Shown: positions 19,626-52,290, counted from the stretch's first letter. The stretch: 64,000 nt of DNA from a bacterium (GCA_963674695.2 CAXXGI010000001.1:544001-608000); one strand, 5' to 3'. Numbers and translations are program-made. The notes: generated by a model not told the origin, from the sequence alone.

Positions 19626-19794
19626 AAGGTCAAAGCTGAAAGCTTTCAGGCTGATGATAACCCCTTGAATGTTGTCATTCCCGCGAAAGCGGGAATCTCG
19701 GTGTGCCGTAACAAGCGAGATTCCCGCTTTCGCGGGAATGACAAAAACTCAGGTTTGTCATCAGCCTCTGGTTAAAACTTTCAGCTTTGACCTT
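19626..19794. mobile_element. Nested palindromic element: 17-bp outer IR / middle IR / type A REP pair
   Basis: AAGGTCAAAGCTGAAAG...CTTTCAGCTTTGACCTT enclosing AGGCTGATGATAACC...GGTTTGTCATCAGCCT enclosing REP 19671-19745. Confidence 0.65.
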
Positions 19795-19821
19795 CTGTCC
19801 CCGCTGTTTTACACAGGGGGC

Positions 19822-22758
19822 ATGGTTTTCGCCCAAGACAAGCGCCTGATGCAAAAACGCATCTCGGAGGTACTGCTGGTCTCCTCCCCGTATGACCTCT
19901 ACCTCATGGAGGAAGAAGGGTTCCTCTCCGATCGCATCTCGGACGAATATGCCCTGCTGCACCTAACGCACGCACCAGCGGTCACGCGCGTTTCCACCGC
20001 CGAAGAGGCGCTGGAGGCGATGGAGAAGCGCCACTTCGATCTGGTCGTGACCGGCATGCGCGTCGGGAAGGCAATGAACGCCTTCGAAATGAGTCGGCGC
20101 ATCAAACAGGATCACCCGGAAATACCCGTCGCACTGCTCACCTCGGAGACCGGGAGACTGGCCACCGCAACGGCGAGTCAGCGTCGCGACATGAGAAGCA
20201 TCGACAAGATCTTTCTCTGGCACGGCGATACCCGTCTCTTCATCGCGCTGATCAAGCTCTTCGAAGATCGCGTCAACGCCGAACACGACTGTCTCAAAGA
20301 ACAGGTGCGCGCCATCATCCTCGTGGAGGACTCGCCCCACTTCTACAGCACCTACCTCCCCTTCATCTACACCGAGATCCTGGAGCAAATGCGCGCGCTC
20401 ATCCTGGAGGGAACGACCGACGAAGAAAAGCTCTTGCGCATGGCCAGCCGCCCAAAGATTCTGCTCGCCAGCAACTACGAGGAGGCTTGCACCCTCTATC
20501 AACGCTATCACGACAGCGTCCTGGGGGTCATCAGCGACATCCGTTTTCCGCGCGCCGGCGTCCTCGATGCCGAGGCCGGATTTGCCATCACCGAGATGGT
20601 CAAGAATGACAACCCGGACGTGCCGGTGCTGCTGCAGTCGAAGGATTTGGAAAAGGCCTACCGCGCCGCCGCCATGGGTGCCGAATTCGCCGATAAGAAC
20701 TCCCCCCACCTCCTGCAGAGCCTGCATCGGTTCATCACGGAATATTTTGGCTTCGGCGACTTCGTCTTCCGGCTTCCGGGAGGAGGAGAGGTGGGACGCG
20801 TTTCCACGATGCGCGGCATGGAGCGCACGCTCGAGGACGTTCCCGAGGCGGCCATCGAATATCACGCCCAGCGCAATCATTTCTCCAACTGGTTCTTCGC
20901 GCGCGGCGAGTTCGAACTGGCGGCGGGATTGCGCCCGATGAAGATCGGCGACTTCGACGACATCGAGGAGGTCCGAAACCTCCTCATCTCGCGTTTGCGT
21001 TCGGTGCGCCTGGGACGGCGACAGACGCGCATCGCCCGATTTTCCGAACGCGACTTCGACCCGACCACGCCCTTCATCCGCTTTGGCGAGGGGTCGATCG
21101 GGGGCAAGGGACGCGGCATCGCCTTCATGAGCCGCATGCTCGCCGATCCCAAAACGGCCAAACGTTTTGAAGGATATCGCGTCGGCGTGCCCCGCACCGC
21201 CGCCATCGGCACGGACATGTTCGACCGCTTTCTGCACCGCAACCGCCTCTATCGCATCGCCATGGAGGGCACCGACGATGCGGCGATCGCACAAGCGTTT
21301 CTGAACTCGGAACTCGAATCGAAATTGGTGGGAGAGCTGACCGCGTTTTTGCGCCGGGTGGAGCAACCGCTGGCCGTGCGCTCCTCGTCCCTTTCGGAGG
21401 ATTCCCTCTCGCAGCCATTCGCGGGGCTCTATTCGACCTACCTCATTCCGAACAACCACCCGGATTTCAACGAACGGCTCGCGCAGTTTTTAGCCGCCGT
21501 GAAACTCATCTATGCCTCGACCTTCTTCGCCAACCCCAAGGCCTATATGGAGGCGAACAACATCGCCATCGAGGGCGAGAAGATGGCGATCATCATCCAG
21601 GAGGTCGTGGGAACGCCGCACGGGCGATACTTCTACCCGGACATGGCCGGCGTTGCCCAATCCTACAACTATTTTCCCGTCGGCTATCTCAAACCCGAGG
21701 ACGGAGTGGCACAACTGGTCATGGGCCTGGGCACGCTCGTCGTGCGCGGCGAACGGGCGCTGCGGTTTTCGCCCCGCTATCCGCAGATCCTGCCGCAATT
21801 CACCAAGGCGCGCGACATCGTGGCCTATTCACAGCGTTCCTTTCAGGCGCTCGATCTCGAAAGCGCCAATACGACGCTCTTCACCGATGAGTCGGCGACG
21901 ATCGCCACGCTCGAATTGAGCCAGGCCGAGCATGATGGCGTGCTGGCAAAGGTCGGCGGCGTCTACGAGCCGGAGGACGACGTCGTCTACGACGGACTCT
22001 CGCGACCCGGGAAACGCGTGGTCTCCTGTCGACAGGTGCTCGCCGGTTCGCGCTTCCCCCTTCCGAATATCCTATTGGAACTCCTCGACATCGGATCCCA
22101 CGGCATGGGCTGCCCGGTCGAGTGCGAGTTCGCCTGCCAGCTCGGCGATGCCGACACGCCCCCCGCCTTCTCGCTGCTGCAGATCCGCCCGCTCGTCACC
22201 GGCGGCGAGGCCGATGAAGTGCGCATCGACGAGGTCACGACGCCGGAGTGCATCGTCACAACCAACCGCGCCATGGGCAACGGCGTCTTCGACGAGATCA
22301 CCACCATCATCGCGGTCAAACCGCAGACGTTCGACCTGTCGCGCACGAGTGAGATCGCCCAGGAGGTCGGCCGCTTCAACGCCGAGATGGTTCGACGCGG
22401 TGAAACCTATATTCTGCTCGGATTCGGACGATGGGGAACGGTGAACCCTCTGCTCGGCATCCCGGTGACCTACGCGCAGGTCTCGCATGCGAAGGTAATC
22501 GGCGAAATCTCCACAGAGGAAATTCACATCGAACCCTCGCAGGGGACGCACTTCTTCCACAACATCGCTTCCTGCCGCATCGGCTACCTCTCGATCGACA
22601 CCACCGACGGCGACGACGAGTTCGTCGACTGGAACTGGATCGCCGCGCAGCCCGTCGAGATGGAATCTCAATTTGTTCGGATGATCCGCTGTGCAAAACC
22701 GGTGGTAACGCGTGTCGATGGACGCACGGGGAAGGGCGTGATTTTGAAACCGCACTAA
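19822..22758 (+). CDS. Receiver-domain + PPDK/PEP-synthase N-terminal (ATP-grasp) domain protein with C-terminal His motif
   Basis: Degenerate REC, split REC (ILVEDS...ISDIRFP), GSIGGKGRG, AVRSSSLSED, FAGLY, GRWG, PSQGTHFFHN; no PEP-binding barrel apparent. Confidence 0.85.
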   Translation: MVFAQDKRLMQKRISEVLLVSSPYDLYLMEEEGFLSDRISDEYALLHLTHAPAVTRVSTAEEALEAMEKRHFDLVVTGMRVGKAMNAFEMSRRIKQDHPEIPVALLTSETGRLATATASQRRDMRSIDKIFLWHGDTRLFIALIKLFEDRVNAEHDCLKEQVRAIILVEDSPHFYSTYLPFIYTEILEQMRALILEGTTDEEKLLRMASRPKILLASNYEEACTLYQRYHDSVLGVISDIRFPRAGVLDAEAGFAITEMVKNDNPDVPVLLQSKDLEKAYRAAAMGAEFADKNSPHLLQSLHRFITEYFGFGDFVFRLPGGGEVGRVSTMRGMERTLEDVPEAAIEYHAQRNHFSNWFFARGEFELAAGLRPMKIGDFDDIEEVRNLLISRLRSVRLGRRQTRIARFSERDFDPTTPFIRFGEGSIGGKGRGIAFMSRMLADPKTAKRFEGYRVGVPRTAAIGTDMFDRFLHRNRLYRIAMEGTDDAAIAQAFLNSELESKLVGELTAFLRRVEQPLAVRSSSLSEDSLSQPFAGLYSTYLIPNNHPDFNERLAQFLAAVKLIYASTFFANPKAYMEANNIAIEGEKMAIIIQEVVGTPHGRYFYPDMAGVAQSYNYFPVGYLKPEDGVAQLVMGLGTLVVRGERALRFSPRYPQILPQFTKARDIVAYSQRSFQALDLESANTTLFTDESATIATLELSQAEHDGVLAKVGGVYEPEDDVVYDGLSRPGKRVVSCRQVLAGSRFPLPNILLELLDIGSHGMGCPVECEFACQLGDADTPPAFSLLQIRPLVTGGEADEVRIDEVTTPECIVTTNRAMGNGVFDEITTIIAVKPQTFDLSRTSEIAQEVGRFNAEMVRRGETYILLGFGRWGTVNPLLGIPVTYAQVSHAKVIGEISTEEIHIEPSQGTHFFHNIASCRIGYLSIDTTDGDDEFVDWNWIAAQPVEMESQFVRMIRCAKPVVTRVDGRTGKGVILKPH

Positions 22759-22777: not shown

Positions 22778-22850
22778 TTGTCATTCCCGCGAAGGCGGGA
22801 ATCTCGACTTTTCAAGCACTTCGAGATTCCCGCCTTCGCGGGAATGACAA
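22778..22850. repeat. REP-like palindrome pair, type A
   Basis: GTCATTCCCGCGAAGGCGGGAATC ... GATTCCCGCCTTCGCGGGAATGAC. Confidence 0.85.
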
Positions 22851-22886: not shown

Positions 22887-23444
22887 TTACGTTTTCATCC
22901 GCAAATCGATGTCCACGATCTGGTCGGCAAATTCGATGCCCGCCTCATAGACGCGTTCGAAGACGGTGGGATGGAACATGCGCACCCAGCGTACGGTTCC
23001 GTGCAGGGCGCAGGCCGCGAGATTGGGCGGCGCGATGACGAGGTGCCGACCCTGTTCGATCGGTTCATGCGACTGAAAACGTATCCCCAACGTGGAGACA
23101 TCCTTCACCCGAGCCGTGTGCCATTGCGAATCGTGATCAAAGCAATAGGAGATCGTCGCCGCGATATCATGACGAGGCACGCGGCGGCGCTCCGGTCCGG
23201 AGGCAACCGCAGGCACCTGTTTGTGCTGATCGAGTTTGACCAACAGGTCATAGCGCGCACGACGCGACGCATCCGAGAGCGTCTCATAGGCCAGATTGAT
23301 TTCGGCCGCCTCGTCGGTGTCGCCCCCCCGGTCGGGATGCTTGCCCATGGTCGACATGAGCGTCCGGTAGGCCGCAGTGATCATCTCCGGCTCAGCATCG
23401 GCGGAGATTTGAAGGATGTCATAGTAGGTGCGTGTTTTGTCCAT
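22887..23444 (-). CDS. DnaJ (J-domain) + PilZ domain protein
   Basis: YYDILQI, HPD, INLAYETLSD..RARYD; RRRVPR (RxxxR) and DVSTLG (DxSxxG). Confidence 0.88.
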   Translation of the reverse strand: MDKTRTYYDILQISADAEPEMITAAYRTLMSTMGKHPDRGGDTDEAAEINLAYETLSDASRRARYDLLVKLDQHKQVPAVASGPERRRVPRHDIAATISYCFDHDSQWHTARVKDVSTLGIRFQSHEPIEQGRHLVIAPPNLAACALHGTVRWVRMFHPTVFERVYEAGIEFADQIVDIDLRMKT

Positions 23445-23453
23445 GATGACCCT

Positions 23454-23481
23454 TTATCGCATCTTCTTCAAAAAGGTTGCG
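23454..23481 (-). promoter_or_regulatory. Recurrent promoter-like motif, copy D
   Basis: Minus strand CGCAACC-N13-TGCGATAA, ending about 10 nt before ATG 23444. Confidence 0.5.
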
Positions 23482-23676
23482 CAAAAAAACACCCCCACAC
23501 GAATTATTGAAAAACAGAATAAAATTCAATGGGATCGCCATCCTCCCCCCCGATCCGACAGGGGGAATATCATCGCGGGCAAGTCCTTTACAGTTATCGG
23601 AACATCCTTTATATCCATTTGGATTCGCCGATCGCAGCGGAAATGCCGCATTCTCGATCCGGCGGGGGGTTTTCAC

Positions 23677-24690
23677 GTGGTTTCCAGCAAGGCCAAACGA
23701 ATTGCCGTCATCGACGACTCGGAGACAACGCGCGCCTTCATGGGCGTGATCCTGTCGGAGGCGGGCTATAGCGTACTGACGGCAAATGACGGCCGGGAGG
23801 GGCTCAATCTCATCGAGCAGGCCAAGCCCGACCTCATCATCCTCGACCTGGTCATGCCGAATCTCTCCGGATTTGCCGTCCTCAACATCCTGCAGGCCAA
23901 GGGCATTACCACCCCCGTACTCGTCATCACCGGCATTGCCGAAATCAGCGACGATCTCGCGCACTTGGGCATTGCCGGGCTCATCGTCAAACCGATCGAT
24001 GCGGATCGCCTGCTGCGCCACATCGATGCCATCTTCAAACTCCAGGAAGTTTCCGAGGAGATGGAGACAAACGTCGAGGATATCTGGGAGTCACAGGAAC
24101 GCTCCATCGACGAGGAGTCCTGGCCGGAACCACTGGCGCACGTGGAAGGCAAACCCCTCCACCACAGCGGTTCGATGATCCGACCCAATCAGAAGCCATC
24201 GGCTGATTCCTCGAAGATCGAGACGGAGTCCCCGCCTGCATCGCTGCCACCGGATGTCGCATCTCCCCCTCCGATCGAACCGGAGGAGGTGGACCCGAAC
24301 AAACCAAAACCGCTGGTTCTCATCGTCGAAGACGAGGAGGACCTGCGCAGCATGCTCTCACAGATGCTCGAGTTCTCCGGCTTTCGCGCGGCAACGGCTG
24401 CCGATGGACAGGAGGGACTCAACAAGGCGCAGGAACTGACCCCGAACGCCATCATCCTGGACCTGATGCTCCCCAAACTGGACGGCTTTCAGGTCTGCCG
24501 ACTGCTCAAGTTCGATGAGAAATACCGCGAGATCCCGATCATCATCCTCACCGCACGCAGCCAACCGGAGGACCAGAGACTTGCCGAAGCCTCCGGTGCG
24601 GATGCCTACATGACCAAACCCTTTGAGACGGATGTCCTGCTGGAAACACTGCACCGCGTGATCGTCAATCGGGCACATGCGCATCACTAG
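23677..24690 (+). CDS. Response regulator with two receiver domains and a Pro/acidic linker
   Basis: IDDS...LDLVMP...KP and VEDE...LDLMLP...TKPF; GTG start after GGGGG. Confidence 0.88.
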   Translation: MVSSKAKRIAVIDDSETTRAFMGVILSEAGYSVLTANDGREGLNLIEQAKPDLIILDLVMPNLSGFAVLNILQAKGITTPVLVITGIAEISDDLAHLGIAGLIVKPIDADRLLRHIDAIFKLQEVSEEMETNVEDIWESQERSIDEESWPEPLAHVEGKPLHHSGSMIRPNQKPSADSSKIETESPPASLPPDVASPPPIEPEEVDPNKPKPLVLIVEDEEDLRSMLSQMLEFSGFRAATAADGQEGLNKAQELTPNAIILDLMLPKLDGFQVCRLLKFDEKYREIPIIILTARSQPEDQRLAEASGADAYMTKPFETDVLLETLHRVIVNRAHAHH

Positions 24691-24702
24691 AGATGGATTT
24701 TG

Positions 24703-24775
24703 TTGTCATTCCCGAGAAATCGGGAATCTCGGTGTACTTGAAAGATCGGGATTCCCGCTTTCGCGGGAATGACAA
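24703..24775. repeat. REP-like palindrome pair, type A
   Basis: GTCATTCCCGAGAAATCGGGAATC ... GATTCCCGCTTTCGCGGGAATGAC. Confidence 0.85.
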
Positions 24776-38970: not shown

Positions 38971-39042
38971 TTGTCATCCCCGTGAAAACGGGGATCTCGA
39001 CGTGGCTTCAAAATCGAGATTCCCGCGTTCGCGGGAATGACA
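38971..39042. repeat. REP-like palindrome pair, type A
   Basis: GTCATCCCCGTGAAAACGGGGATC ... GATTCCCGCGTTCGCGGGAATGAC. Confidence 0.8.
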
Positions 39043-44109: not shown

Positions 44110-44640
44110 ATGAAGCTCTCTACCGCCATCATCATCATCGTCGCCCTGATCGTCGCGGCCATCTGTATCGTCAAGTACAACACCCTCTCCGATTACGACG
44201 AAGCGGCCGAGAAGTCATTTGCCCCGCTGACCAGTTTTCTGCAGGAACGCTATCAGGCCGTGCCGCGACTGGTCAGCTCGATCGTCCTCTATACCGGCAA
44301 GGAGGATCGCGAAGTCAAGCAGCTCAATGAAGCCTACAAAGCCTATACCCAGGCGACGACAATGCAGCAGCGCGTGGAGACGAGCGCCACACTGGAAGCC
44401 ACACTCATGAACACGAAGCAACAGATCATGGATCGCTATCCGGGAATTTCCAGCAACTATCAGTTCAACTCGATCGCCAAGACGATCGCACAGGCCGGGA
44501 ATGACCTGATGGGACCGCTGGGCGCCTACAACACAGCGGCGAGCACCTACAACTCCTATGTGCGTCGCTTCCCCAACAACATCGTCGGCGCGATCTTCAT
44601 GTTTCCATCGCGCTATCCGTACTTCAAGCGTGAAAGCTAA
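44110..44640 (+). CDS. lemA: LemA family protein
   Basis: N-terminal TM, YNTL, RYP, YN..VRRFPNNIVG. Confidence 0.8.
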   Translation: MKLSTAIIIIVALIVAAICIVKYNTLSDYDEAAEKSFAPLTSFLQERYQAVPRLVSSIVLYTGKEDREVKQLNEAYKAYTQATTMQQRVETSATLEATLMNTKQQIMDRYPGISSNYQFNSIAKTIAQAGNDLMGPLGAYNTAASTYNSYVRRFPNNIVGAIFMFPSRYPYFKRES

Positions 44641-44656
44641 TGTGCACGTTGGCATA

Positions 44657-44694
44657 AATAAAAAACCCCCGGTCGAACCGGGGGTTTTTTTATT
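44657..44694. terminator. Bidirectional Rho-independent terminator
   Basis: AATAAAAAACCCCCGGTCGAACCGGGGGTTTTTTTATT. Confidence 0.85.
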
Positions 44695-44776
44695 GAAGCG
44701 TAGAACGTTTCGCCGGAAAAGCCCTTGTCGTCCGGCATGTGGACTGCTATTCGAAGGATGTTCCTGAGGGCACCCT

Positions 44777-46066
44777 ATGCAGCCCAACGAGATGCACAGC
44801 ACGATGTCCCGTTCGGCCGATTCGCTGGCCAACGTCATGGCTGAATTCGATGCAGCGGCAAAGCATCTGCACCTCGATCCTGACAGCATCGCCTCGATTC
44901 GCGAACCGCGATGTGCCATGCGATTGGCACTTCCGGTGCGCACCGACGACGGCCACATTCGGGTCCTGCGAGCCTACCACACCATCCACTCCCGCATGCG
45001 CGGCCCCTCGATCGGTGGCGTCCAGTTTCGACCGGACGTCGACCCACACACGGTCGAAGCGCTCGCCTTCTGGTCTTCTCACCGCTGCGCCCTGGTGGGC
45101 ATCCCTTTCGGCGGGAGCTCCGGCGCCATCGATTGCGATCCACGCCAATTCAGCCTCGGTGAACTCGAACGCATCACCCGGCGCTACATCGCTGAACTCG
45201 CGCACGTCATCGGCCCCAATCGCAACATTTTGACAGCGGACATCGGCACCAACCAGCAGATCATGTGCTGGGCGATGGACACCTATTCGATGAACCACAA
45301 CGACTACACCCCGGCCGTCGTAACGGGAAAACCAGCCGATCTCGGAGGATCAGCGTTGACGGTCGCACCGGCCGCAATCGGGGCTGAGATCTGCATCCGC
45401 AAGGCCTGCGCCCACATCGGCCTTGCGCTGGAAGGCGCGCGCGTCGCCATTCAGGGGTTCGGCAAGGTCGGCATGACGATCGCAAAGCTCCTCGCCGCCC
45501 GTGGGGCGAAGATCATCGCCATCGCCGATATCAGCGGCGCCTACATCAACGAAGACGGCATCGAGATCGACGAGATCATCTGGCACCAGCAGTCCTACGG
45601 CATCCTCGACGGACTCGAGGGCGAGGCGGATGTCGAACGCCTCCCCGATCCGAAGGATATCTTTGCCCTTCCCGTCGACATCCTGGTTCCGGCCGCCGTC
45701 GAGCTGCAGATCACCGAGCTGAATGCGGCAGCGGTGCAAGCCCGCATCATCGCTGAAATCGCCCATGACCCGGTCTCGCCCGAAGCCGATCGGATGCTCA
45801 CCGAGCGCGGCGTTTTCATCATTCCGGACGTCCTGTGCAACGCCGGCGGCGTTATCGGATCATACCTGGAATGGGTCCAGAATCGGATGGGATATGTCTG
45901 GGACGCCGAGCGCGTCGAACAGGCCCTCGCACAGCTACTCGAACAGGCGTTCGATACCGCGGTGAAAACAGCTCAGCGCGAACAGATCCCCCTGCGCCTG
46001 GCCGCTGCTGTCCTGGCGGTCAAACGTATCGTCCAGGCATCGACGATGAGGGGGGCCTATGCTTGA
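44777..46066 (+). CDS. Glu/Leu/Phe/Val dehydrogenase homologue with degenerate active site (pseudo-GDH)
   Basis: Full GDH fold (VVTGKP, QGFGKVG, IPDVLCNAGGV.SYLEWVQN) but GPSIGG, HRCA, GGSSGA replace the Lys-containing motifs. Confidence 0.85.
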   Translation: MQPNEMHSTMSRSADSLANVMAEFDAAAKHLHLDPDSIASIREPRCAMRLALPVRTDDGHIRVLRAYHTIHSRMRGPSIGGVQFRPDVDPHTVEALAFWSSHRCALVGIPFGGSSGAIDCDPRQFSLGELERITRRYIAELAHVIGPNRNILTADIGTNQQIMCWAMDTYSMNHNDYTPAVVTGKPADLGGSALTVAPAAIGAEICIRKACAHIGLALEGARVAIQGFGKVGMTIAKLLAARGAKIIAIADISGAYINEDGIEIDEIIWHQQSYGILDGLEGEADVERLPDPKDIFALPVDILVPAAVELQITELNAAAVQARIIAEIAHDPVSPEADRMLTERGVFIIPDVLCNAGGVIGSYLEWVQNRMGYVWDAERVEQALAQLLEQAFDTAVKTAQREQIPLRLAAAVLAVKRIVQASTMRGAYA

Positions 46067-47825
46067 GACGCCGCCGATTCAGATTGGGGAAGGTTCGCTT
46101 GGCGGAAAGGGCAAGGGCATCGTGCGCGTGATCGAAGCGATCGCCGCGCTCAAAGCCGACGGCACGGATGCAGCACTTGCCGAACGCATCGCCGTTCCGC
46201 GCACGGCATTTCTGGCCACCGACATCTATCGCGACTTCATCGCCCATAATGAATTCGAAGCACTCATCGCACAGACCAAGACCGCCGAAGCAATCGACAC
46301 GGAAACAATCGCCCCGCGTTTTCTGGGCGGCCAGTTTCCTCAACCAATCGTAGCAGCGTTGCAGAAACTGTTGAAGCAATTTGAAAAACCCCTGGCTGTG
46401 CGCTCGTCCTCACTACTCGAAGACCAAAAAGGTGCCTCGTTCGCTGGAAAATACGAATCCGTCTTCGTCGCCAACACGGGATCACCTCAAGAACGCCTCG
46501 AAGCGCTGCTCGCGGCCATCACGACCGTCTATGCCTCGACCTTCAATCCGAATGCCTTGGCGTATCGCCGCAAGCACGGGTTTCTCGACGACCGCGAGGA
46601 GATGGCGATCGTCATCCAGGAAGTGGTGGGACAATCCTTCGGACGTTATTTCTTCCCCGCCCTCTCCGGCGTCGGCTTCTCCCAGAACGGCTACTGTTGG
46701 AACAAGAACATCAAGAAACACGACGGATTGGTGCGACTCGTCTTCGGCCTGGGAACCCGCGCGGTGGGCCGCGGATACGTGCGGCTCTTCTCACCGCCGG
46801 CTCCGGAGATGCGACCGGAGGGGAATGAAGTCAACAACATCCAGAAGTGCAGCCAGAAGAAGGTGGATGTCATTGATCTCGAGAAGGGTTGTTTTGCCTC
46901 GGTCCACTTTCGCAAGCTCATCACCGATGGATTCACCTGCCCCCCCGGCACACAATTATTCGTCTCCCTCCGAGACGGCGGCTATCTCTACCGCCCTGTC
47001 TCCAATCTCTGGGATTCCTCGCACGTTCCGGTACTCACGCTCGATGGCGTGCTCTCCGGCATGTGGATGGGGATCAATGTGCCGAAGACCCTGGGCTGGA
47101 TCCTGCGCGAGTTGGAGACGCGCATGGGATGTGCCATCGACATGGAATTCGCCATCGACGTCGACAGCCAAAAACAACGCGCCAACATCTTCATCGTCCA
47201 GGCGCGCCCACTCTCTGAACGAGAAAACCAAAAGCCGGAACCGATCCCGAAGCTGCCCGCGAATGACATCCTCTTCACGGTGCACCGCAACCTGCCCACA
47301 GCAACCGTTCCCGACATCGACCTGCTCGTCGCGGTCAACGAAACGCGCTATCACGAATGGCCCGCCGACGACCGGCAGAGCGTTGCCCGCGTCATCGGCG
47401 CCCTCAACGACCTGCTGGCGAAGAAACGTTTTGCGCTGATCGGACCCGGCCGCTGGGGCTCCTGGAATCCCCAGCTCGGTGTCCCCGTGAGCTACGCCGA
47501 GATCGCGGGCACCGTACTGCTCATCGAAGTGGCCCGAAGAAAAGCGACCTACGTCCCGGAGGTTTCGTTCGGTTCGCACTTCTTCCAGGATCTGATCGAA
47601 GACAACATCGCCTACCTCCCGCTCTATCCGGATGAACCGAACGAAACATTCAACGAGAAGATCCTTCAGCTTCCTTCCTGTTTCCCCACGCTCCTCCCCG
47701 ACCCGTATTTTCGAAAGTTCGATGAGCTGATCACCGTTATCGATGTCGCAGCCCAGGCCGGTGGCCGCAAGGCCCATGCGATTCTGAACGGCGAAACGGA
47801 GGAGGCAATCGTCTTCCTCCGTTAG
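46059..47825 (+). CDS. PPDK/PEP-synthase N-terminal ATP-grasp protein with C-terminal His motif (no REC, no PEP barrel)
   Basis: GSLGGKGKG, AVRSSSLLED, FAGKYES, GLGTRAV, GPGRWGS, SFGSHFFQD; start overlaps pseudo-GDH end. Confidence 0.85.
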   Translation: MLETPPIQIGEGSLGGKGKGIVRVIEAIAALKADGTDAALAERIAVPRTAFLATDIYRDFIAHNEFEALIAQTKTAEAIDTETIAPRFLGGQFPQPIVAALQKLLKQFEKPLAVRSSSLLEDQKGASFAGKYESVFVANTGSPQERLEALLAAITTVYASTFNPNALAYRRKHGFLDDREEMAIVIQEVVGQSFGRYFFPALSGVGFSQNGYCWNKNIKKHDGLVRLVFGLGTRAVGRGYVRLFSPPAPEMRPEGNEVNNIQKCSQKKVDVIDLEKGCFASVHFRKLITDGFTCPPGTQLFVSLRDGGYLYRPVSNLWDSSHVPVLTLDGVLSGMWMGINVPKTLGWILRELETRMGCAIDMEFAIDVDSQKQRANIFIVQARPLSERENQKPEPIPKLPANDILFTVHRNLPTATVPDIDLLVAVNETRYHEWPADDRQSVARVIGALNDLLAKKRFALIGPGRWGSWNPQLGVPVSYAEIAGTVLLIEVARRKATYVPEVSFGSHFFQDLIEDNIAYLPLYPDEPNETFNEKILQLPSCFPTLLPDPYFRKFDELITVIDVAAQAGGRKAHAILNGETEEAIVFLR

Positions 47826-47898
47826 CGCCCATCAGGCGAGTGTTGCATTGACCCGCCGCTATCAGCTATCATTGGACTTCGAGCAAAGGGGGGCACCC

Positions 47899-48288
47899 AT
47901 GGGAAACAAGCGCATCCTGGTGGTTGAGGACGAACCGGATCTGGCCGATCTGCTCATCCAATATTTAAAACATGAAGGCTATTCCATCATGGTCGCCCTG
48001 GATGGAAAGGATGGCCTGGAACGCGCCAAGGAAGAGCATCCGGATCTGATCATCACCGACGTGATGATGCCCAAGCTCGATGGCTTTCACCTCTGTCGCC
48101 TGCTCAAGTTCGATGCCAACTTCAAGAATATCCCGATCATCATGCTGACTTCGCGCGGAGAGGGCGAAGCCAAGCAGACGGGCACGAGCGTCGGCGCAGA
48201 TGCCTACCTCACCAAACCATTCGAGAGCGAGGAACTCCTCGCGACGATCCGGAAGCTCCTCGGCGAGGATGAAATCAAGGAAGGATAG
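47899..48288 (+). CDS. Single-domain response regulator receiver protein
   Basis: VVEDE, TDVMMP, LTS, TKPF. Confidence 0.92.
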   Translation: MGNKRILVVEDEPDLADLLIQYLKHEGYSIMVALDGKDGLERAKEEHPDLIITDVMMPKLDGFHLCRLLKFDANFKNIPIIMLTSRGEGEAKQTGTSVGADAYLTKPFESEELLATIRKLLGEDEIKEG

Positions 48289-48360
48289 ACCATCCCAAAG
48301 AAAACTCGTGTAAGGGGCGCCTGCGAAGAAAGCGCTCCAGGGTGATGACAAACCTTGGTT

Positions 48361-48461
48361 TTGTCATCCCCGCCCCCGATTCAACCATTCGAGGGCAGGC
48401 TCCAGCGGGGATCTCGATGTACCGTATAAAGCGAGATTCCCGCTTTCGCGGGAATGACAAC
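48361..48461. repeat. REP-like palindrome pair, type A with loop insert
   Basis: GTCATCCCCGC-[CCCCGATTCAACCATTCGAGGGCAGGCTCCA]-GCGGGGATC ... GATTCCCGCTTTCGCGGGAATGAC. Confidence 0.8.
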
Positions 48462-48515
48462 ATGAAATGACTTAATCAGCAGTCTGAGAGCGCCGACGCA
48501 TGCGGCGCTCCTTTT

Positions 48516-49739
48516 TTATGACGTGAACGCCTCTGCAGGATTCCGGCCCGCCGCGCGCAAGCGACGAATATCGGCGGTGAGTTTCGGCAAGATATCAAAG
48601 AGATCTCCGACCAAACCGTAATCGGCCAGCCGAAAGATCGGGGCATGCGGATCGCGATTGATGGCGAGCAGCTTTTCCGACGTCTTCATCCCGACGATAT
48701 GCTGAATGGCACCCGAGATGCCGACGGCGACGTAGAGTTTCGGACAGACCGTCTTGCCCGTCTGACCGATCTGATTGGCATAGTCGATCCAGCCTTTGTC
48801 GACCGCTGAACGTGTGGCGCCGACCGCGCCGCCGAGGGCATCGGCCAAGTCCTGAATCAATGCAAAGTTCTCCGGGTTTCCCAACCCCCCGCCGCCGGAG
48901 ACGATGATATCGGCATCGACCAGATTCACCCCGATCCCCTCGCGCACAATCGATTCGACCACCTTCACCCGCGAGACGAGCGATCGCTCCGGAACGGAGA
49001 CCGCGATCACCTCGCCGCTACGGCCGGCCTGTGCTTCTGCCTCGCGCATCACCTTATAGCGCACGGTGGCCATCTGAGGACGATGCCGACGCGTGACGAT
49101 CGTCGCCATGATGTTGCCACCGAAGGCCGGACGCGTCTGCGCCAGATGCCCCGCCGCATCGATGTGCAGCTCGGTGCAATCGGCGGTGAGCCCCGTACGC
49201 AACTCGGCCGCCACGCGAGGGATGAATGCGCGCCCAACGGGAGTCGCGCCGGCCAGGATGATCTCCGGCTTCTGCTGGGCAGCCAACGCCGCAAGCGCCG
49301 TCCCATAAAGGTCGTCTCGAAAATCGGCCACCTTTGGATCGTCGAGCAGATAGACGCGGTCGGCCCCGCGCGCAATGAGTTCATCGGCGAGCGAAGTGAC
49401 GCCATCGCCAAAGAGTACGGCGGCAAGAAACGTATCGCGAGCATCGGCGAGTTTGCGCCCTTCACCCAAGAGTTCAAAGGAGACCCGGTGGAGGCTGCCC
49501 CGACACTGTTCGGCAAAGACCCAAACGCCCTGATACGCCGAAAGATCCGGCGTCTCCATGTGTGGCATTTCGAAACGAATGGCATGATACGGACAGACCG
49601 AGACGCACGCGGTACAGAGCGTGCACACATCCTCATCGATAGCCGCACACCCCTCGACGAGACGAATCGCTTCGACCGGGCACTCATTCAGACAGAGGCC
49701 ACAGCCCGTACACTTGGCTTTGATTATTTCGATGCCCAT
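48516..49739 (-). CDS. etfA: Electron transfer flavoprotein alpha subunit with N-terminal 2[4Fe-4S] ferredoxin
   Basis: CTGCGLC..CP and CTLCTAC..CP; GLTADCT, RPAFGGN, QIGQTG, GISGAIQH. Confidence 0.95.
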   Translation of the reverse strand: MGIEIIKAKCTGCGLCLNECPVEAIRLVEGCAAIDEDVCTLCTACVSVCPYHAIRFEMPHMETPDLSAYQGVWVFAEQCRGSLHRVSFELLGEGRKLADARDTFLAAVLFGDGVTSLADELIARGADRVYLLDDPKVADFRDDLYGTALAALAAQQKPEIILAGATPVGRAFIPRVAAELRTGLTADCTELHIDAAGHLAQTRPAFGGNIMATIVTRRHRPQMATVRYKVMREAEAQAGRSGEVIAVSVPERSLVSRVKVVESIVREGIGVNLVDADIIVSGGGGLGNPENFALIQDLADALGGAVGATRSAVDKGWIDYANQIGQTGKTVCPKLYVAVGISGAIQHIVGMKTSEKLLAINRDPHAPIFRLADYGLVGDLFDILPKLTADIRRLRAAGRNPAEAFTS

Positions 49740-50521
49740 AGTTCCTTCAACTCTTGCTGCAGACTCTGTGCGATGTGAGCAATATTCGCCTCCGTCGCCA
49801 CGAGCGGCTCACTCCCCTGACGCATCGGTGGCGTAAAGATGCGGTCGACCCAGGTGGGCGAACCCTCGAGACCAAGGCGCTGGAGATCGCAACCAATATC
49901 CACCGCACTCCAAACGGGAATATTCGAACGCTTCGCCCGCACCTTCCCCATAAACGAGGTATAGCGCGGTGTGCTGATCTCTTTGACGACCGAGAGCAGG
50001 CACGGCAGCGGCAGGCGCACGATATCGTGGCCGCATTCCGTCATGCGCTCCACGACGACGTGTCGCGGGCCCACCTCCTGCACGCGACGGACGAAGGCGG
50101 CCTGCGGCAGGAGCAGATGCACCGCGATCCCCGGACCCACTTGCGCGGTATCGCCGTCGGAGGCCTGCTTGCCCGTCAGGATCAGATCGAAGGCACCGTG
50201 ATGGATGATTGCCCGAGCCAATGCATAGCTGGTCGCAAGCGTGTCGCTGCCGGCAAAGGCACGATCAGAGATGAGCACCGCATCGTCCGCCCCCATGGCG
50301 ATCGCCTCTTCGAGCGCCACCCGCGCCTGCGGTGGACCCATGGTGAGGACCGTCACGCGCCCCCCGTGCGCTTCGCGCAGGCGCAGCCCCTCTTCGATGG
50401 CATAGAGATCGAACGGATTGATGATCGAGCGCACCCCATCGCGCACGAGCGTGTTCGTCTGCGGATTGATCTTCACATCCGTCGTATCGGGAACCTGTTT
50501 GATGCAGACAATGATATCCAT
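49724..50521 (-). CDS. etfB: Electron transfer flavoprotein beta subunit
   Basis: VCIKQVPD, NPFD, GSDTLAT, DGDTAQVGP, GSPTWV. Confidence 0.95.
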   Translation of the reverse strand: MDIIVCIKQVPDTTDVKINPQTNTLVRDGVRSIINPFDLYAIEEGLRLREAHGGRVTVLTMGPPQARVALEEAIAMGADDAVLISDRAFAGSDTLATSYALARAIIHHGAFDLILTGKQASDGDTAQVGPGIAVHLLLPQAAFVRRVQEVGPRHVVVERMTECGHDIVRLPLPCLLSVVKEISTPRYTSFMGKVRAKRSNIPVWSAVDIGCDLQRLGLEGSPTWVDRIFTPPMRQGSEPLVATEANIAHIAQSLQQELKELWASK

Positions 50522-50644
50522 AAAAATTAAAAAGGAAAAATATGAAATGAAAAACACAGACCAAAAATAAAAGATAAAGTCGTAAAATTTTTCATTTTTG
50601 ATTTGTGTATTTCATTTTTCATTTCCTATTTTTCATTTTGAAAT
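50522..50644. repeat. AT-rich imperfect inverted repeat between ETF-QO and etfB
   Basis: A-rich arm AAAAAGGAAAAATATGAAATGAAAAACACAGACCAAAAAT vs T-rich arm ATTTTTGATTTGTGTATTTCATTTTTCATTTCCTATTTTTC. Confidence 0.55.
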
Positions 50645-52290
50645 CACATTCCCTTGTAATTCGGTCCGCCGCCGCCCTCGGGGGGAACCCAGGTGACGAT
50701 CTTGTACGGATCCTTGATATCGCACGTCTTGCAGTGCACGCAGTTGGACGGGTTCAGGTGGAGGCGTGTGACGCCATCGGCCTCCTCGACCATTTCGAAG
50801 ACGCCCGCGGGACAGAAGAACTGACACGGATTGCCGTACTCCTGCTTGCAACGCCCGTTACAGATGGAGGTGTCATCGACCAGGATGTGACAGGGCTGGT
50901 CCTCCTCGTGTTTCGTACCGGAAGCAAAGACACAGGTCGTGCGATCGAAAGTCACCTTGTCATCCGGAACGAAGGGCGGCTCTTTGTGTGCCTTCACCTG
51001 GCTGAGCTCTTTCGTGCAGTCCGCATCCGAAGGCACCGGAATGCGATCGTGCAATCCCCGACCGCCGGTGAGGATACCCAGACTCGCATTGATCATCCCG
51101 CCGATGAGCCCCCCGTGAAATCCCTGGTGAAAATTGCGCGCAAGCTTGAGTCCCTTCGCCATCCAACTTCCCCGCACGCGTTCATCATAGACCGAGAGTT
51201 TTGCTGCCGAACAGTCATCCACACGCAACGCATCGATCGCCGTCTCGGCAGCCAGCATCCCCGACTTCATCGCCAAATCGATCCCCTTGAGCTTCATGGC
51301 GTTCAAAAACCCGGCGCTCTCGCCGATGATGAGGAATCCATCGCCATAGGTTCGCGGAATGCAGTAGAACCCCCCCTCCGCGATCGTGCGCGCGCCATAG
51401 GAGAGCATGCGGCCGCTCTCGAAAAGCGGTCGAATCGCCGGGTGCGCCTTCCAGCGCTGAAAGAGCTCGTAGGGATAGGTGCGCGGATCCTTCCAATCGA
51501 GCGAGACCACGAGCCCCGCCGCCACATGCCGATCGCGCAGATGATAGATGAAACTCCCGCCAAAGGTCTTCGCGTCCAGCGGATGGCCCATCGTGTTGAC
51601 GATGGTCCCCTCCCGGAAATGCTTCGGGTCCACCTCCCAGAGTTCCTTGATTCCCACCGCATACCCCTGAGGCAGGCAGTGTTCATCGAGCCCCTGTGAT
51701 TCGACGAGGCGCCGCGTCAAGTGTCCGCGCGCGCCCTCGCCCAGCACGACAATGCGCGCGCCGATATCGGTCGGGGGCAGGTAGTTCGACTTCTGCTTAC
51801 CCTCCTTATCGCACCCCTTCCCCTTGATGCGCACACCGATCACGGCCCCGCGTTCATCCTGGATAAGTTCATCGACCGCCTCACCGGAAAAGATCTCGAC
51901 CCCTTCGGCCTCGCAATGGCCGCCCAGCCATCGCACGAACTCCGCCAGCGAGATAATATACTTGCCGTGGTTGGACATCGGCGGCGGAACGAGGGGTGCG
52001 GGGATGTGATGATTGCGCGTCAGATACCAGAGGCGCTCACGGCTCACCTTCGTGCCGAAGGGGATGTCGCGACTGCGCCAATCGGGCATCAGTTCGGCCA
52101 GCGCTCGCGGGTCAAGCGCCGCGCCCGAGAGCGAATGATCACCCAGATTTGGCGCCTTCTCGATGACGGCCACCGTCATGCCGGAGAGCTTCGGATCTGT
52201 CTTGGCCAGACGTTTGAGATGCAGCGCACCGGCGAGCGATGCCGGCCCGCCGCCGACAAAGATGACATCGAAGGAAAGTTCAAAGGACAT
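50644..52290 (-). CDS. etfdh: Electron transfer flavoprotein-quinone oxidoreductase
   Basis: GGGPA, SGA, GIKELW, KGIDLAMKSG, EEDQPCH, CPAGV, NCVHCKTCDIKDP, PEGGGGP. Confidence 0.93.
   Translation of the reverse strand: MSFELSFDVIFVGGGPASLAGALHLKRLAKTDPKLSGMTVAVIEKAPNLGDHSLSGAALDPRALAELMPDWRSRDIPFGTKVSRERLWYLTRNHHIPAPLVPPPMSNHGKYIISLAEFVRWLGGHCEAEGVEIFSGEAVDELIQDERGAVIGVRIKGKGCDKEGKQKSNYLPPTDIGARIVVLGEGARGHLTRRLVESQGLDEHCLPQGYAVGIKELWEVDPKHFREGTIVNTMGHPLDAKTFGGSFIYHLRDRHVAAGLVVSLDWKDPRTYPYELFQRWKAHPAIRPLFESGRMLSYGARTIAEGGFYCIPRTYGDGFLIIGESAGFLNAMKLKGIDLAMKSGMLAAETAIDALRVDDCSAAKLSVYDERVRGSWMAKGLKLARNFHQGFHGGLIGGMINASLGILTGGRGLHDRIPVPSDADCTKELSQVKAHKEPPFVPDDKVTFDRTTCVFASGTKHEEDQPCHILVDDTSICNGRCKQEYGNPCQFFCPAGVFEMVEEADGVTRLHLNPSNCVHCKTCDIKDPYKIVTWVPPEGGGGPNYKGM

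What the first reader, a model, noticed from the sequence alone, without database searches (positions are those of the whole stretch)
44777..48288. Catalytically dead glutamate dehydrogenase translationally coupled to a dikinase-like protein and a receiver
Seen: canonical GDH motifs GPxKGGxR, MTxKxA, GGxKGG, PAPD and GGSxGRxxAT read GPSIGGVQ, SSHRCA, GGSSGA, LTAD and GGSALTVAPA, so all three active-site lysines and the conserved Arg are lost. The NAD(P) motif GFGKVG and the ORF are intact, and its end overlaps the start of the PPDK-like gene. Known: Thermus GdhA is an inactive regulatory GDH subunit; PPDK-N proteins of this type often neighbour gdh genes. Inference: a pseudo-enzyme sensor (amino acid or redox cofactor) wired to an ATP-grasp/His kinase and REC, i.e. 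an undescribed metabolic signalling module.
Basis: partly seen in the sequence, partly recalled or inferred. Interest (0 to 1): 0.75.

Follow-up and report, generated by a model that had tools for sequence, protein, structure and literature searches.

The report
Dead glutamate dehydrogenase with dikinase-like partner
This gene encodes a well-conserved glutamate dehydrogenase look-alike that has lost its catalytic residues and is always made together with an uncharacterised ATP-using enzyme, most likely as part of an undescribed control system for a central enzyme of nitrogen metabolism.

Summary
The ORF at 44777-46066 is a full-length GDH-family protein in which all three active-site lysines and the substrate arginine are replaced, while the dinucleotide loop is intact. 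Its stop overlaps the start of a PPDK_N-type gene by 8 nt, and a receiver gene follows.

It is not a decaying copy. It belongs to a monophyletic clade in which all 38 proteins covering the sites share the losses. That clade is under purifying selection as strong as on an active neighbour.

In 12 of 12 related loci an intact GDH gene lies directly upstream of the dead one. The PPDK_N-type gene follows in 8 of 8 loci that extend far enough, with the same 8-nt overlap in 9 of 9 loci including the window. A receiver follows in 0 of 7. The window is the only locus without the active GDH in cis and the only one with a receiver.

My best reading is a catalytically dead regulatory or adaptor subunit of a hetero-oligomeric GDH, analogous to Thermus GdhA but of independent origin. 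It would be worked on or sensed by a barrel-less dikinase-like enzyme made of an ATP-grasp domain and a probable phospho-histidine domain.

This scan has already noted the wider GDH/PPDK_N pairing, including lysine-less copies, on other DNA. My searches found no paper describing it.

The parts
44657..44694 (+). Strong hairpin followed by a U run, after the LemA-family gene (44110-44640). It is a likely terminator that separates the operon from upstream genes.
   Evidence: Sequence read. RNA fold of 44650-44700 gives -24.7 kcal/mol, z -4.37, and 0 of 200 shuffles fold as well. The pattern scan did not list it.
44777..46066 (+). Catalytically dead glutamate dehydrogenase paralogue (429 aa). Both GDH domains, the GFGKVG loop and Asp251 are kept. 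The three active-site Lys, the substrate Arg and the Asn of ANGP are replaced.
   Evidence: Monophyletic clade. Purifying selection.
46059..47825 (+). Barrel-less dikinase-like protein (588 aa). It has a PPDK_N ATP-grasp domain (about residues 1-397) and a 190-residue C-terminal domain with invariant GPGRWGS and G[ST]HFFQDL motifs (His507). Its start overlaps the dead GDH stop by 8 nt.
   Evidence: Overlap.
47899..48288 (+). Stand-alone receiver (REC) protein of 129 aa. The ORF is open from TTG 47848; the likely start is ATG 47899. The acidic pocket, acceptor Asp, Thr and Lys are all present by eye.
   Evidence: It is not conserved at this position in relatives.
48488..48510 (+). Terminator-like hairpin (8 pairs, 7 of them G-C) followed by a T run. 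It is the likely end of the three-gene transcription unit.

Best explanation
The dead GDH is a non-catalytic subunit (regulator or adaptor) of a hetero-oligomeric glutamate dehydrogenase. It is made in fixed ratio with a dikinase-like enzyme that uses ATP to act on, or report the state of, that GDH complex.

Shown:
- The catalytic residues are gone but the protein is strongly conserved.
- In relatives the gene order is always active GDH, then dead GDH, then PPDK_N-type gene.
- The dead GDH and the PPDK_N-type gene are always translationally coupled.
- Related PPDK_N-type genes sit directly after intact GDH genes.

Inferred:
- The dead subunit co-assembles with an active GDH. In this genome that would be the unlinked copy on contig 2, which is 69% identical to the partner type.
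- It keeps the inter-subunit amino-acid (leucine-type) site and an adenine-dinucleotide pocket.
- The PPDK_N-type protein autophosphorylates on His507 from ATP and passes the phosphate to the GDH complex or to a ligand bound in the remodelled pocket.
- In this genome alone the unit has been separated from the active gene and has picked up a receiver, which may gate the dikinase-like enzyme or accept its phosphate.
For: 1. Loss of catalytic residues with conservation.
- 38 of 38 clade members that cover the sites lack all three Lys.
- 136 of 429 positions are at least 90% conserved in the clade, and 18 positions are conserved only in the clade.
- For the one unsaturated pair (L023/L109), dN/dS is 0.024 for the dead gene against 0.032 for its active neighbour.
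- The clade is one branch: 48 of 48 rows with support 100 (FastTree), and 22 of 22 rows with SH-aLRT 100 and stem length 0.89 (IQ-TREE quick on a random subsample).

2. Gene order.
- A GDH gene lies directly upstream on the same strand in 12 of 12 related loci. Nine cover all ten sites and are canonical at all of them. Three are cut by the contig end and are canonical where covered.
- The gaps between the two GDH genes are 5-30 nt in the 6 loci measured.
- The PPDK_N-type gene follows in 8 of 8 loci that continue.
- The 8-nt start/stop overlap is present in 9 of 9 loci.

3. The same PPDK_N subfamily follows intact GDH genes.
- This holds in 9 of 9 second-tier loci with upstream context in this phylum.
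- It holds in 51 of 80 distant loci.

4. Precedent: Thermus GDH.
- It is described as a heterohexamer in which inactive GdhA is the regulatory subunit, with an extra AMP-sensing subunit (PMC9570180, passages).
- The printed sequence of 3aoe_E shows the catalytic Lys replaced (GGAAGG).
- The Arg of TRRY, the Asp of MDTYS and the C-terminal Tyr, which align with the leucine-site residues named in that paper, are kept in the window protein.

5. The partner enzyme.
- Its ATP-grasp half matches rifampin phosphotransferase, PEP synthase and PPDK (Foldseek E down to 7.5e-17; profile vs PDB E 2.7e-16).
- The best fold matches of the C-terminal domain are phosphoryl-carrier swivel domains: PPDK 2fm4 (Z 6.1, rmsd 3.6 over 113 residues), pyruvate kinase C-terminal domain (Z 6.0), maize PPDK 388-511 (Z 5.7), RPH 757-866 (Z 5.4) and Enzyme I (Z 5.0).
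- It has an invariant His at the start of a helix.
- A barrel-less PPDK relative, VadK, autophosphorylates on His and binds metabolic enzymes (PMC13400623, abstract and section 8).
Against: - No physical interaction was tested; no complex prediction was obtained.
- In this genome the active GDH is not in cis. The window's operon is bracketed by terminator-like hairpins, so here the pair may work without an active GDH.
- The swivel-domain match is weak. Z of about 6 is within the range the tool calls common, Foldseek found nothing at E <= 0.001, and Pfam finds no PEP-utilizers domain.
- The nearest characterised relatives of the ATP-grasp half (RPH, HpeI) phosphorylate small molecules, not proteins (search listings).
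- Several residues near the nicotinamide and substrate site are also changed (Asn310 to Leu, Asn330 to His, Gly331 to Asp, Val361 to Gly). Dinucleotide binding is therefore not assured.
- dS is saturated in most pairs, so the dN/dS figure rests on one pair.
Confidence: 0.5

Rival explanations
1. Small-molecule pathway. The dead GDH has become a binding or carrier protein, or a new-function enzyme, for an amino-acid-like compound. The dikinase-like enzyme phosphorylates that compound, as rifampin phosphotransferase or the HpeHI kinase do with their substrates. The adjacent active GDH would supply or remove a pathway intermediate.
For: - The closest solved relatives of the ATP-grasp half are small-molecule kinases: RPH entries 5hv1/5hv3 and HpeI entry 9goj (abstracts in the listing).
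- The former active-site cleft is remodelled rather than randomised. Ile79, Gln83, Arg103, Ala117, Asp331 and Gly361 are conserved within the clade, and Asp155 and the Rossmann loop are kept.
Against: - No further pathway genes are conserved around the module. Downstream genes differ among relatives.
- Tight coupling to a GDH-fold protein across many phyla, whether that protein is active or dead, fits a protein target better.
- The partner has no separate substrate-binding domain like the RIF-binding domain of RPH. It is 588 aa against about 850 aa.
Confidence: 0.2
2. This is a free-standing signalling module in which the pseudo-GDH senses an amino acid or a redox cofactor, controls autophosphorylation of the ATP-grasp/His protein, and the phosphate passes to the receiver.
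For: - In the window the three genes form one unit between terminator-like hairpins, with no active GDH.
- The receiver has its acidic pocket, acceptor Asp, Thr and Lys.
- A paralogue in the same window (19669-22758) fuses a receiver-like domain to the same ATP-grasp and C-terminal module.
- A receiver-GDH fusion exists elsewhere (P0309).
Against: - A receiver follows in 0 of 7 related loci.
- None of the 119 nearest receiver homologues listed shares a contig length with the dead-GDH or PPDK_N lists. I checked this by eye.
- Receivers lie within 6 kb in only 7 of 80 distant loci, none adjacent.
- An active GDH lies upstream in 12 of 12 relatives.
- In the fused paralogue the receiver is N-terminal and lacks the acceptor Asp. 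That points to an input domain rather than a phosphate acceptor.
Confidence: 0.2
3. The gene is a decaying, non-functional GDH copy.
For: - All key catalytic residues are lost.
- The protein scores far below the cut-offs of the GDH equivalog models: 368.6 against 620 bits, and 367.3 against 750 bits.
Against: - The frame is intact and full-length.
- The same substitutions are found in 38 of 38 clade members.
- dN/dS is 0.024 in the one unsaturated pair, and at most 0.26 in the window pairs where dS could be computed.
- Translational coupling is conserved.
Confidence: 0.02

Closest known systems
Thermus thermophilus GdhA/GdhB hetero-hexameric GDH with its AMP-sensing APRT-homologue subunit (PDB 3AOE; Tomita et al. 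2010, 2011 and 2019, as cited in PMC9570180)
   Same: - A catalytically inactive GDH paralogue serves as regulatory subunit of an active paralogue, and a third, nucleotide-binding protein joins the complex (PMC9570180, passages).
- The catalytic Lys of GGxKGG is replaced in the 3aoe_E sequence (GGAAGG).
- In relatives of the window the dead and active genes are adjacent.
- The residues aligned with the leucine site are kept.
   Different: - Origin is independent. The window protein is nearer to chain A (GdhB; E 7.4e-103) than to chain E (E 4.3e-80). The Thermus GdhA-like cluster (P0312) lies outside the clade.
- The Thermus chain keeps the other two Lys, the Arg and the Asn. Here all are lost.
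- The third component here is a PPDK_N-type ATP-grasp protein, not an APRT homologue.
- That chain E is GdhA is inferred from the paper's statement that chain A is GdhB. The original Tomita papers were not held.
VadK (Rv1127c) of Mycobacterium tuberculosis, a truncated PPDK relative (PMC13400623)
   Same: Both have an ATP-binding PPDK_N half plus a histidine phospho-carrier domain and lack the PEP/pyruvate barrel. VadK autophosphorylates on His with ATP and Mg and interacts with metabolic enzymes (abstract and section 8).
   Different: - VadK keeps a recognisable PEP-utilizers-type His domain. Here the C-terminal domain has no Pfam match and only weak fold matches.
- The partner enzymes differ: methylcitrate cycle enzymes against GDH.
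- No sequence comparison with VadK was run here.
Rifampin phosphotransferase and 'PEP synthase-like' kinases (RPH-Lm 5hv1/5hv3; HpeI 9goj)
   Same: These are the best structural and sequence matches of the ATP-grasp half. RPH is built from an ATP-grasp domain and a swivelling His domain (PMC4844700, abstract in the listing).
   Different: - There is no RIF-binding-type substrate domain.
- Those enzymes have small-molecule substrates.
- Identity over the aligned part is about 20%.
Lysine-less GDH copies in PPDK_N operons noted earlier by this scan (e1-4442706, e1-4398852)
   Same: These are GDH look-alikes without the catalytic Lys that sit in dikinase-like operons near a normal GDH. I saw five further such cases among 66 GDH ORFs of 80 distant loci.
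   Different: - Those copies lost mainly the third Lys (GGSEGG, GGAYGG; L037, L056, L087 and L090 keep the first two).
- The window's clade lost all three Lys plus the Arg and the Asn.
- It forms its own deep branch and is a second GDH gene inserted between the active GDH and the PPDK_N-type gene.

Membership tests
Glu/Leu/Phe/Val dehydrogenase superfamily (fold) | Both Pfam domains, ELFV_dehydrog_N and ELFV_dehydrog, over their full length | tested here: met
   E 6.9e-42 (profile positions 4-128 of 129) and E 8.1e-63 (1-241 of 241).
Active glutamate dehydrogenase (EC 1.4.1.2-4) | Catalytic Lys in GGxKGG | tested here: not met
   Ser115. It is non-Lys in 38 of 38 clade members and Lys in 81 of 81 other hits.
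Active glutamate dehydrogenase (EC 1.4.1.2-4) | Substrate-carboxylate-binding Lys of GPxKGG and of xKxA, and Arg of GSxGR | tested here: not met
   Ile79, Arg103 and Thr195. That these residues bind the substrate is recalled textbook knowledge of Clostridium symbiosum GDH.
Active glutamate dehydrogenase (EC 1.4.1.2-4) | Score above the curated cut-off of an NCBIfam GDH equivalog model | tested here: not met
   Best scores are 368.6 bits against a cut-off of 620, and 367.3 against 750.
Active glutamate dehydrogenase (EC 1.4.1.2-4) | Gly-rich dinucleotide loop and the acidic residue after the second strand | tested here: met
   QGFGKVG and Asp251 are kept.
Regulatory pseudo-subunit of hetero-oligomeric GDH (Thermus GdhA type, by function) | Encoded next to an active GDH paralogue | tested here: inconclusive
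   Met in 12 of 12 related loci. Not met in the window itself: LemA and a terminator lie upstream, and the active GDHs are on contig 2.
Regulatory pseudo-subunit of hetero-oligomeric GDH (Thermus GdhA type, by function) | Forms mixed hexamers with the active subunit and changes its activity | not testable with these tools
   No complex prediction was obtained. This needs biochemistry.
Regulatory pseudo-subunit of hetero-oligomeric GDH (Thermus GdhA type, by descent) | Orthology with Thermus GdhA | tested here: not met
   Nearer to 3aoe_A (E 7.4e-103) than to 3aoe_E (E 4.3e-80). The GdhA-like cluster P0312 is a separate representative.
PEP-utilising dikinases (PEP synthase, PPDK) | PPDK_N ATP-grasp domain | tested here: met
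   Pfam E 5.7e-49. Foldseek finds RPH, PEP synthase and PPDK with E from 7.5e-17 to 1e-8.
PEP-utilising dikinases (PEP synthase, PPDK) | Swivelling phospho-histidine domain (PEP-utilizers) | tested here: inconclusive
   No Pfam match and no Foldseek match at E <= 0.001. The top VIA-align matches are swivel domains at Z 5.0-6.1. His507 is invariant.
PEP-utilising dikinases (PEP synthase, PPDK) | C-terminal PEP/pyruvate-binding TIM barrel | tested here: not met
   The protein ends at residue 588 with no such Pfam match. NCBIfam PEP synthase models are matched only over about residues 40-235 and far below their cut-offs.
Two-component phosphorelay | Receiver domain with acceptor Asp | tested here: met
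   Response_reg E 3.8e-30. The acceptor Asp in LIITDVMMP, and the Thr and Lys, are seen in the translation.
Two-component phosphorelay | Cognate HisKA/HATPase_c histidine kinase in the unit | tested here: not met
   None among the ORFs scanned between 35641 and 57510.

The most novel reading that the evidence does not exclude
The dead GDH is the dedicated handle through which an ATP-driven, phospho-histidine dikinase-like enzyme covalently switches a hexameric glutamate dehydrogenase. This would be a GDH counterpart of the GlnE/glutamine synthetase system. The enzyme binds and phosphorylates the pseudo-subunit, or a ligand held in its remodelled pocket, and the modified subunit tunes the active subunits in mixed hexamers. 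In this genome the switch has been uncoupled from the active gene and placed under a receiver, so that it acts in trans on unlinked GDHs.
Probability: 0.25. Interest if true: 0.85.

Novelty: new variant of a known kind. Interest (0 to 1): 0.6.

Why it matters
GDH sits at the junction of carbon and nitrogen metabolism. Apart from allostery and the Thermus heterocomplex, little is known about dedicated control systems for it in bacteria.

- The GDH/PPDK_N-type pairing is very widespread. More than 600 matching stretches were found in one scan of species genomes, from many phyla, yet my searches found no paper on it.
- This clade is a natural experiment. The partner gene stays welded to a GDH-fold protein that can no longer catalyse. 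That argues the partner recognises the GDH fold itself rather than its reaction.
- It also offers a simple system for testing binding, phosphotransfer and regulation.
- Public databases name these proteins 'glutamate dehydrogenase (NAD(P)+)'. That label is probably wrong for metabolic reconstructions.

Tried and rejected
- **Complex prediction** (dead GDH residues 38-429 with the whole PPDK_N-type protein, both as alignments). The queue was full for many hand-ins. There is no result in either direction.
- **Expression.** No RNA holder was listed for the stretch. The runs laid were contigs only, so co-transcription is untested.
- **Foldseek of the C-terminal domain against PDB.** Nothing at E <= 0.001.
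- **Original Thermus papers** PMC3199488 and PMC6597394 are not held.
- **Literature searches** gave no paper on a lysine-less GDH paralogue coupled to a PPDK_N-type protein. PMC3543383 (passages) was irrelevant. A recalled 1987 report of reversible in vivo inactivation of Bacteroides fragilis GDH was not found in the library and is not used.
- **dN/dS.** Most pairs had saturated dS, so only one pair is informative.
- **Sister group of the dead clade.** It is not resolved; there is a polytomy with the partner-type and contig-2-type GDHs.
- **Receiver conservation.** The nearest receiver homologues (60% identity or less) show no shared contigs with the module, checked by eye on contig lengths.
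- **Pseudogene reading.** Rejected; see the rival explanations.
- **Metagenome scan with the clade profile.** It gave only 8 loci.
- **Profile search of 1.84 billion representatives.** The clade collapses to one full-length 50% cluster plus two fragments, so its breadth cannot be judged from that.


Full report
**What is there**

The region holds three co-oriented genes.
- 44777-46066: a 429-aa protein with both GDH Pfam domains over their full length.
- 46059-47825: a 588-aa protein whose only Pfam match is PPDK_N, at residues 13-397.
- 47848-48288: a receiver ORF, more likely starting at ATG 47899, which has a G-rich ribosome site before it.

The first two genes overlap by 8 nt, ATGCTTGA.

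The unit has clear boundaries.
- Upstream, a LemA-family gene ends at 44640. It is followed by a hairpin and U run (-24.7 kcal/mol, z -4.4).
- Downstream of the receiver lies a terminator-like hairpin at 48488-48510. After it come convergent ETF genes.

Independent contigs of two public runs from one sample span the LemA/GDH junction without differences. The unusual left boundary is therefore not a MAG assembly error, although that sample may be the window's own source.

Aligned to Thermus GDH 3aoe_A (E 7.4e-103) and to 35 homologues, the substitutions are as follows.
- Lys of GPxKGG is Ile79.
- Lys of xKxA is Arg103.
- Catalytic Lys of GGxKGG is Ser115.
- Arg of GSxGR is Thr195.
- Asn-Gly of ANGP is His-Asp.
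- Arg of GGVR is Gln.

GFGKVG and Asp251 are also kept.

The protein scores far below the cut-offs of the curated GDH equivalog models.

**It is a conserved family, not decay**

- Among the 120 best database hits, 38 have all three lysines replaced, 81 have all three, and one fragment does not cover the sites.
- The lysine-less proteins are 53-68% identical to the window protein.
- They form one branch: 48 of 48 rows with support 100 in a 190-row FastTree, and 22 of 22 with SH-aLRT 100 and stem 0.89 in an 80-row IQ-TREE quick run on a random subsample.
- In that second tree the window protein branches first, with support 85.
- The sister group is unresolved.
- Within the clade, 136 of 429 positions are at least 90% conserved. 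Thirty-seven positions that are invariant in active relatives are replaced, and 18 positions are conserved only in the clade. These include a surface-type segment around W269-E283.
- dS is saturated for most pairs. In the one informative pair (L023/L109), dN/dS is 0.024 for the dead gene and 0.032 for its active neighbour.

**The context that changes the interpretation**

In the window's phylum (93 species genomes) the dead GDH occurs in four other genomes, all in the window's order. Eight metagenome contigs add further loci.

Across all 12 non-window loci:
- A GDH gene lies immediately upstream on the same strand. Nine are complete and canonical at all ten sites. Three are cut by the contig end and are canonical where covered.
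- The gaps between the two GDH genes are 5-30 nt.
- The PPDK_N-type gene follows in 8 of 8 loci that continue.
- The start inside the last codons of the dead GDH gives the same 8-nt overlap in 9 of 9 loci, including the window.
- A receiver follows in 0 of 7 loci with at least 900 nt of further sequence.
- Other downstream genes differ between loci.

The conserved unit is therefore active GDH, then dead GDH, then PPDK_N-type protein.

The window is the single exception (1 of 13). It has no active GDH in cis and carries an added receiver. A genome of the same family keeps the flanking Peptidase_Mx and Ddl-like genes beside the full three-gene unit. This suggests that the active copy was lost from this locus in the window's lineage.

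The window's genome has two intact GDH genes on another contig, both without PPDK_N neighbours. One is 69% identical to the partner type.

**The partner family**

The PPDK_N-type protein belongs to a very large family defined by invariant GPGRWGS and G[ST]HFFQDL motifs in a 190-residue C-terminal domain.

In the same phylum:
- A second tier, 43-49% identical, occurs in 11 genomes.
- It lies directly after an intact but divergent GDH in 9 of 9 loci with upstream context.
- Three genomes carry both modules.

Among 80 distant loci from many phyla:
- 55 have a GDH within 6 kb, 51 of them upstream on the same strand.
- The usual form there is GDH, a roughly 590-aa PPDK_N protein, and a roughly 1065-aa one with a C-terminal Pol-beta-type nucleotidyltransferase domain.
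- Five of the 66 GDH ORFs in these loci lack the catalytic Lys.

Among the 150 best 50%-identity cluster representatives found with the clade profile, 23 outside this clade lack at least one of the three lysines. One of them, P0312, is the Thermus GdhA-like cluster. Lysine-less GDH paralogues are therefore recurrent. This clade is the most thoroughly stripped one I saw.

**What the partner is**

- The full model (pLDDT 86) matches rifampin phosphotransferase, HpeI, PEP synthase and PPDK through its ATP-grasp half.
- The C-terminal domain, modelled alone (pLDDT 93), has no Pfam match and no significant Foldseek match.
- An all-against-representatives structural search puts phosphoryl-carrier swivel domains at or near the top. 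The rows are PPDK 2fm4 (Z 6.1), pyruvate kinase C-terminal domain (Z 6.0), maize PPDK 388-511 (Z 5.7), RPH 757-866 (Z 5.4) and Enzyme I (Z 5.0).
- By the tool's own calibration, Z of about 6 can be a common arrangement. I therefore call the domain a probable, strongly diverged phospho-histidine domain.
- The invariant His507 sits at the N-terminus of a helix, as in G-x-[ST]-H swivel motifs. That comparison is recalled, not tested.
- There is no PEP/pyruvate barrel.
- The nearest characterised analogue in architecture is VadK, a barrel-less PPDK relative. It autophosphorylates on His and interacts with methylcitrate-cycle enzymes (PMC13400623, abstract and sections 8 and 17).

**The receiver**

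The receiver is intact and sits in the same unit in the window. Nothing shows that it is a conserved member.

Indirect support for a functional link comes from fusions.
- The same window encodes a 1029-aa paralogue (19669-22758) with an N-terminal receiver-like domain and the same ATP-grasp and C-terminal module. It is 31% identical, and the acceptor Asp is replaced.
- Similar proteins of about 1000 aa occur in eight other genomes of the phylum.
- One database protein fuses a receiver to an intact GDH (P0309).

These fusions suggest that receivers act as inputs to this enzyme type.

**Comparison with the known**

Thermus GDH is described as a heterohexamer with inactive regulatory GdhA, active GdhB and an AMP-sensing APRT homologue (PMC9570180, passages).

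The 3aoe_E sequence printed lacks only the catalytic Lys (GGAAGG) and keeps the other two Lys, the Arg and the Asn. That this chain is GdhA is inferred from the paper's statement that chain A is GdhB.

The window protein is nearer to chain A than to chain E. The resemblance is therefore convergent, not orthology.

The residues aligned with the Thermus leucine site are kept: the Arg of TRRY, the Asp of MDTYS and the C-terminal Tyr. A one-residue numbering offset against the paper remains unresolved.

**Verdict**

The protein is a conserved pseudo-enzyme coupled to a dikinase-like protein, but the module is built around an active GDH, and the receiver is a local addition.
- I put 0.5 on a regulatory or adaptor pseudo-subunit of a hetero-oligomeric GDH served by the dikinase-like enzyme.
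- I put 0.2 on a small-molecule pathway, 0.2 on the free-standing sensor-kinase-receiver model, and 0.02 on decay.
- This scan has flagged the GDH/PPDK_N pairing, including lysine-less copies, many times on other DNA.
- My literature searches found no description of it.
- No interaction, phosphotransfer or expression result could be obtained here.

Noticed in passing
window 19669-22758 (+) and 23428-24690 (+): A 1029-aa paralogue joins a receiver-like domain, whose acceptor Asp is replaced (VVTGM), to PPDK_N and the same C-terminal GRWG/GTHFF domain. It is 31% identical to the finding's protein. The next gene has two receiver domains. No GDH lies beside them. The listed ATG at 19669 lies inside a repeat element, so the true start is probably further downstream.
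   Followed up: partly
window 48439-48459 and 11 other sites (for example 19673-19743, 22779-22849, 24704-24774, 38972-39042): A REP-like 21-mer occurs 12 times in the window against 0 expected, mostly as inverted pairs 50 nt apart between genes. Contig depth in public runs rises from about 17 to 260-800 at 48226-48627.
   Followed up: partly
proteins P0309 and P0265: P0309 is a receiver domain fused to an intact GDH. P0265 is a CTP_transf_1 domain fused to a GDH. Several other GDHs carry N-terminal extensions of 115-260 aa with no Pfam match.
   Followed up: no
proteins (for example P0276, P0277, P0296, P0300, P0305, P0372, P0375): Twenty-three further 50%-identity cluster representatives among the top 150 lack at least one of the three active-site lysines. 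P0312 is the cluster nearest Thermus GdhA (3aoe_E, E 9.4e-134). Their gene neighbourhoods were not examined.
   Followed up: partly
L065:4972-8160 and similar ORFs of about 1065 aa in L029-L107: Long members of the PPDK_N-type family carry a C-terminal Pol-beta-type nucleotidyltransferase domain (PF18765/PF01909) and an N-terminal extension of about 350 aa without a Pfam match. A subgroup of about 780-830 aa (for example L038, L063, L070, L086, L103) has no GDH within 5 kb upstream.
   Followed up: no
window 48516-52290 (-): Convergent with the operon lie genes for an ETF alpha subunit with an N-terminal ferredoxin domain, an ETF beta subunit and ETF-quinone oxidoreductase. No link to the finding was tested.
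   Followed up: no
public names of clade members: Members of the dead clade are named 'glutamate dehydrogenase (NAD(P)+)' or 'Glu/Leu/Phe/Val dehydrogenase' in public sources. This is likely to mislead metabolic reconstructions.
   Followed up: yes
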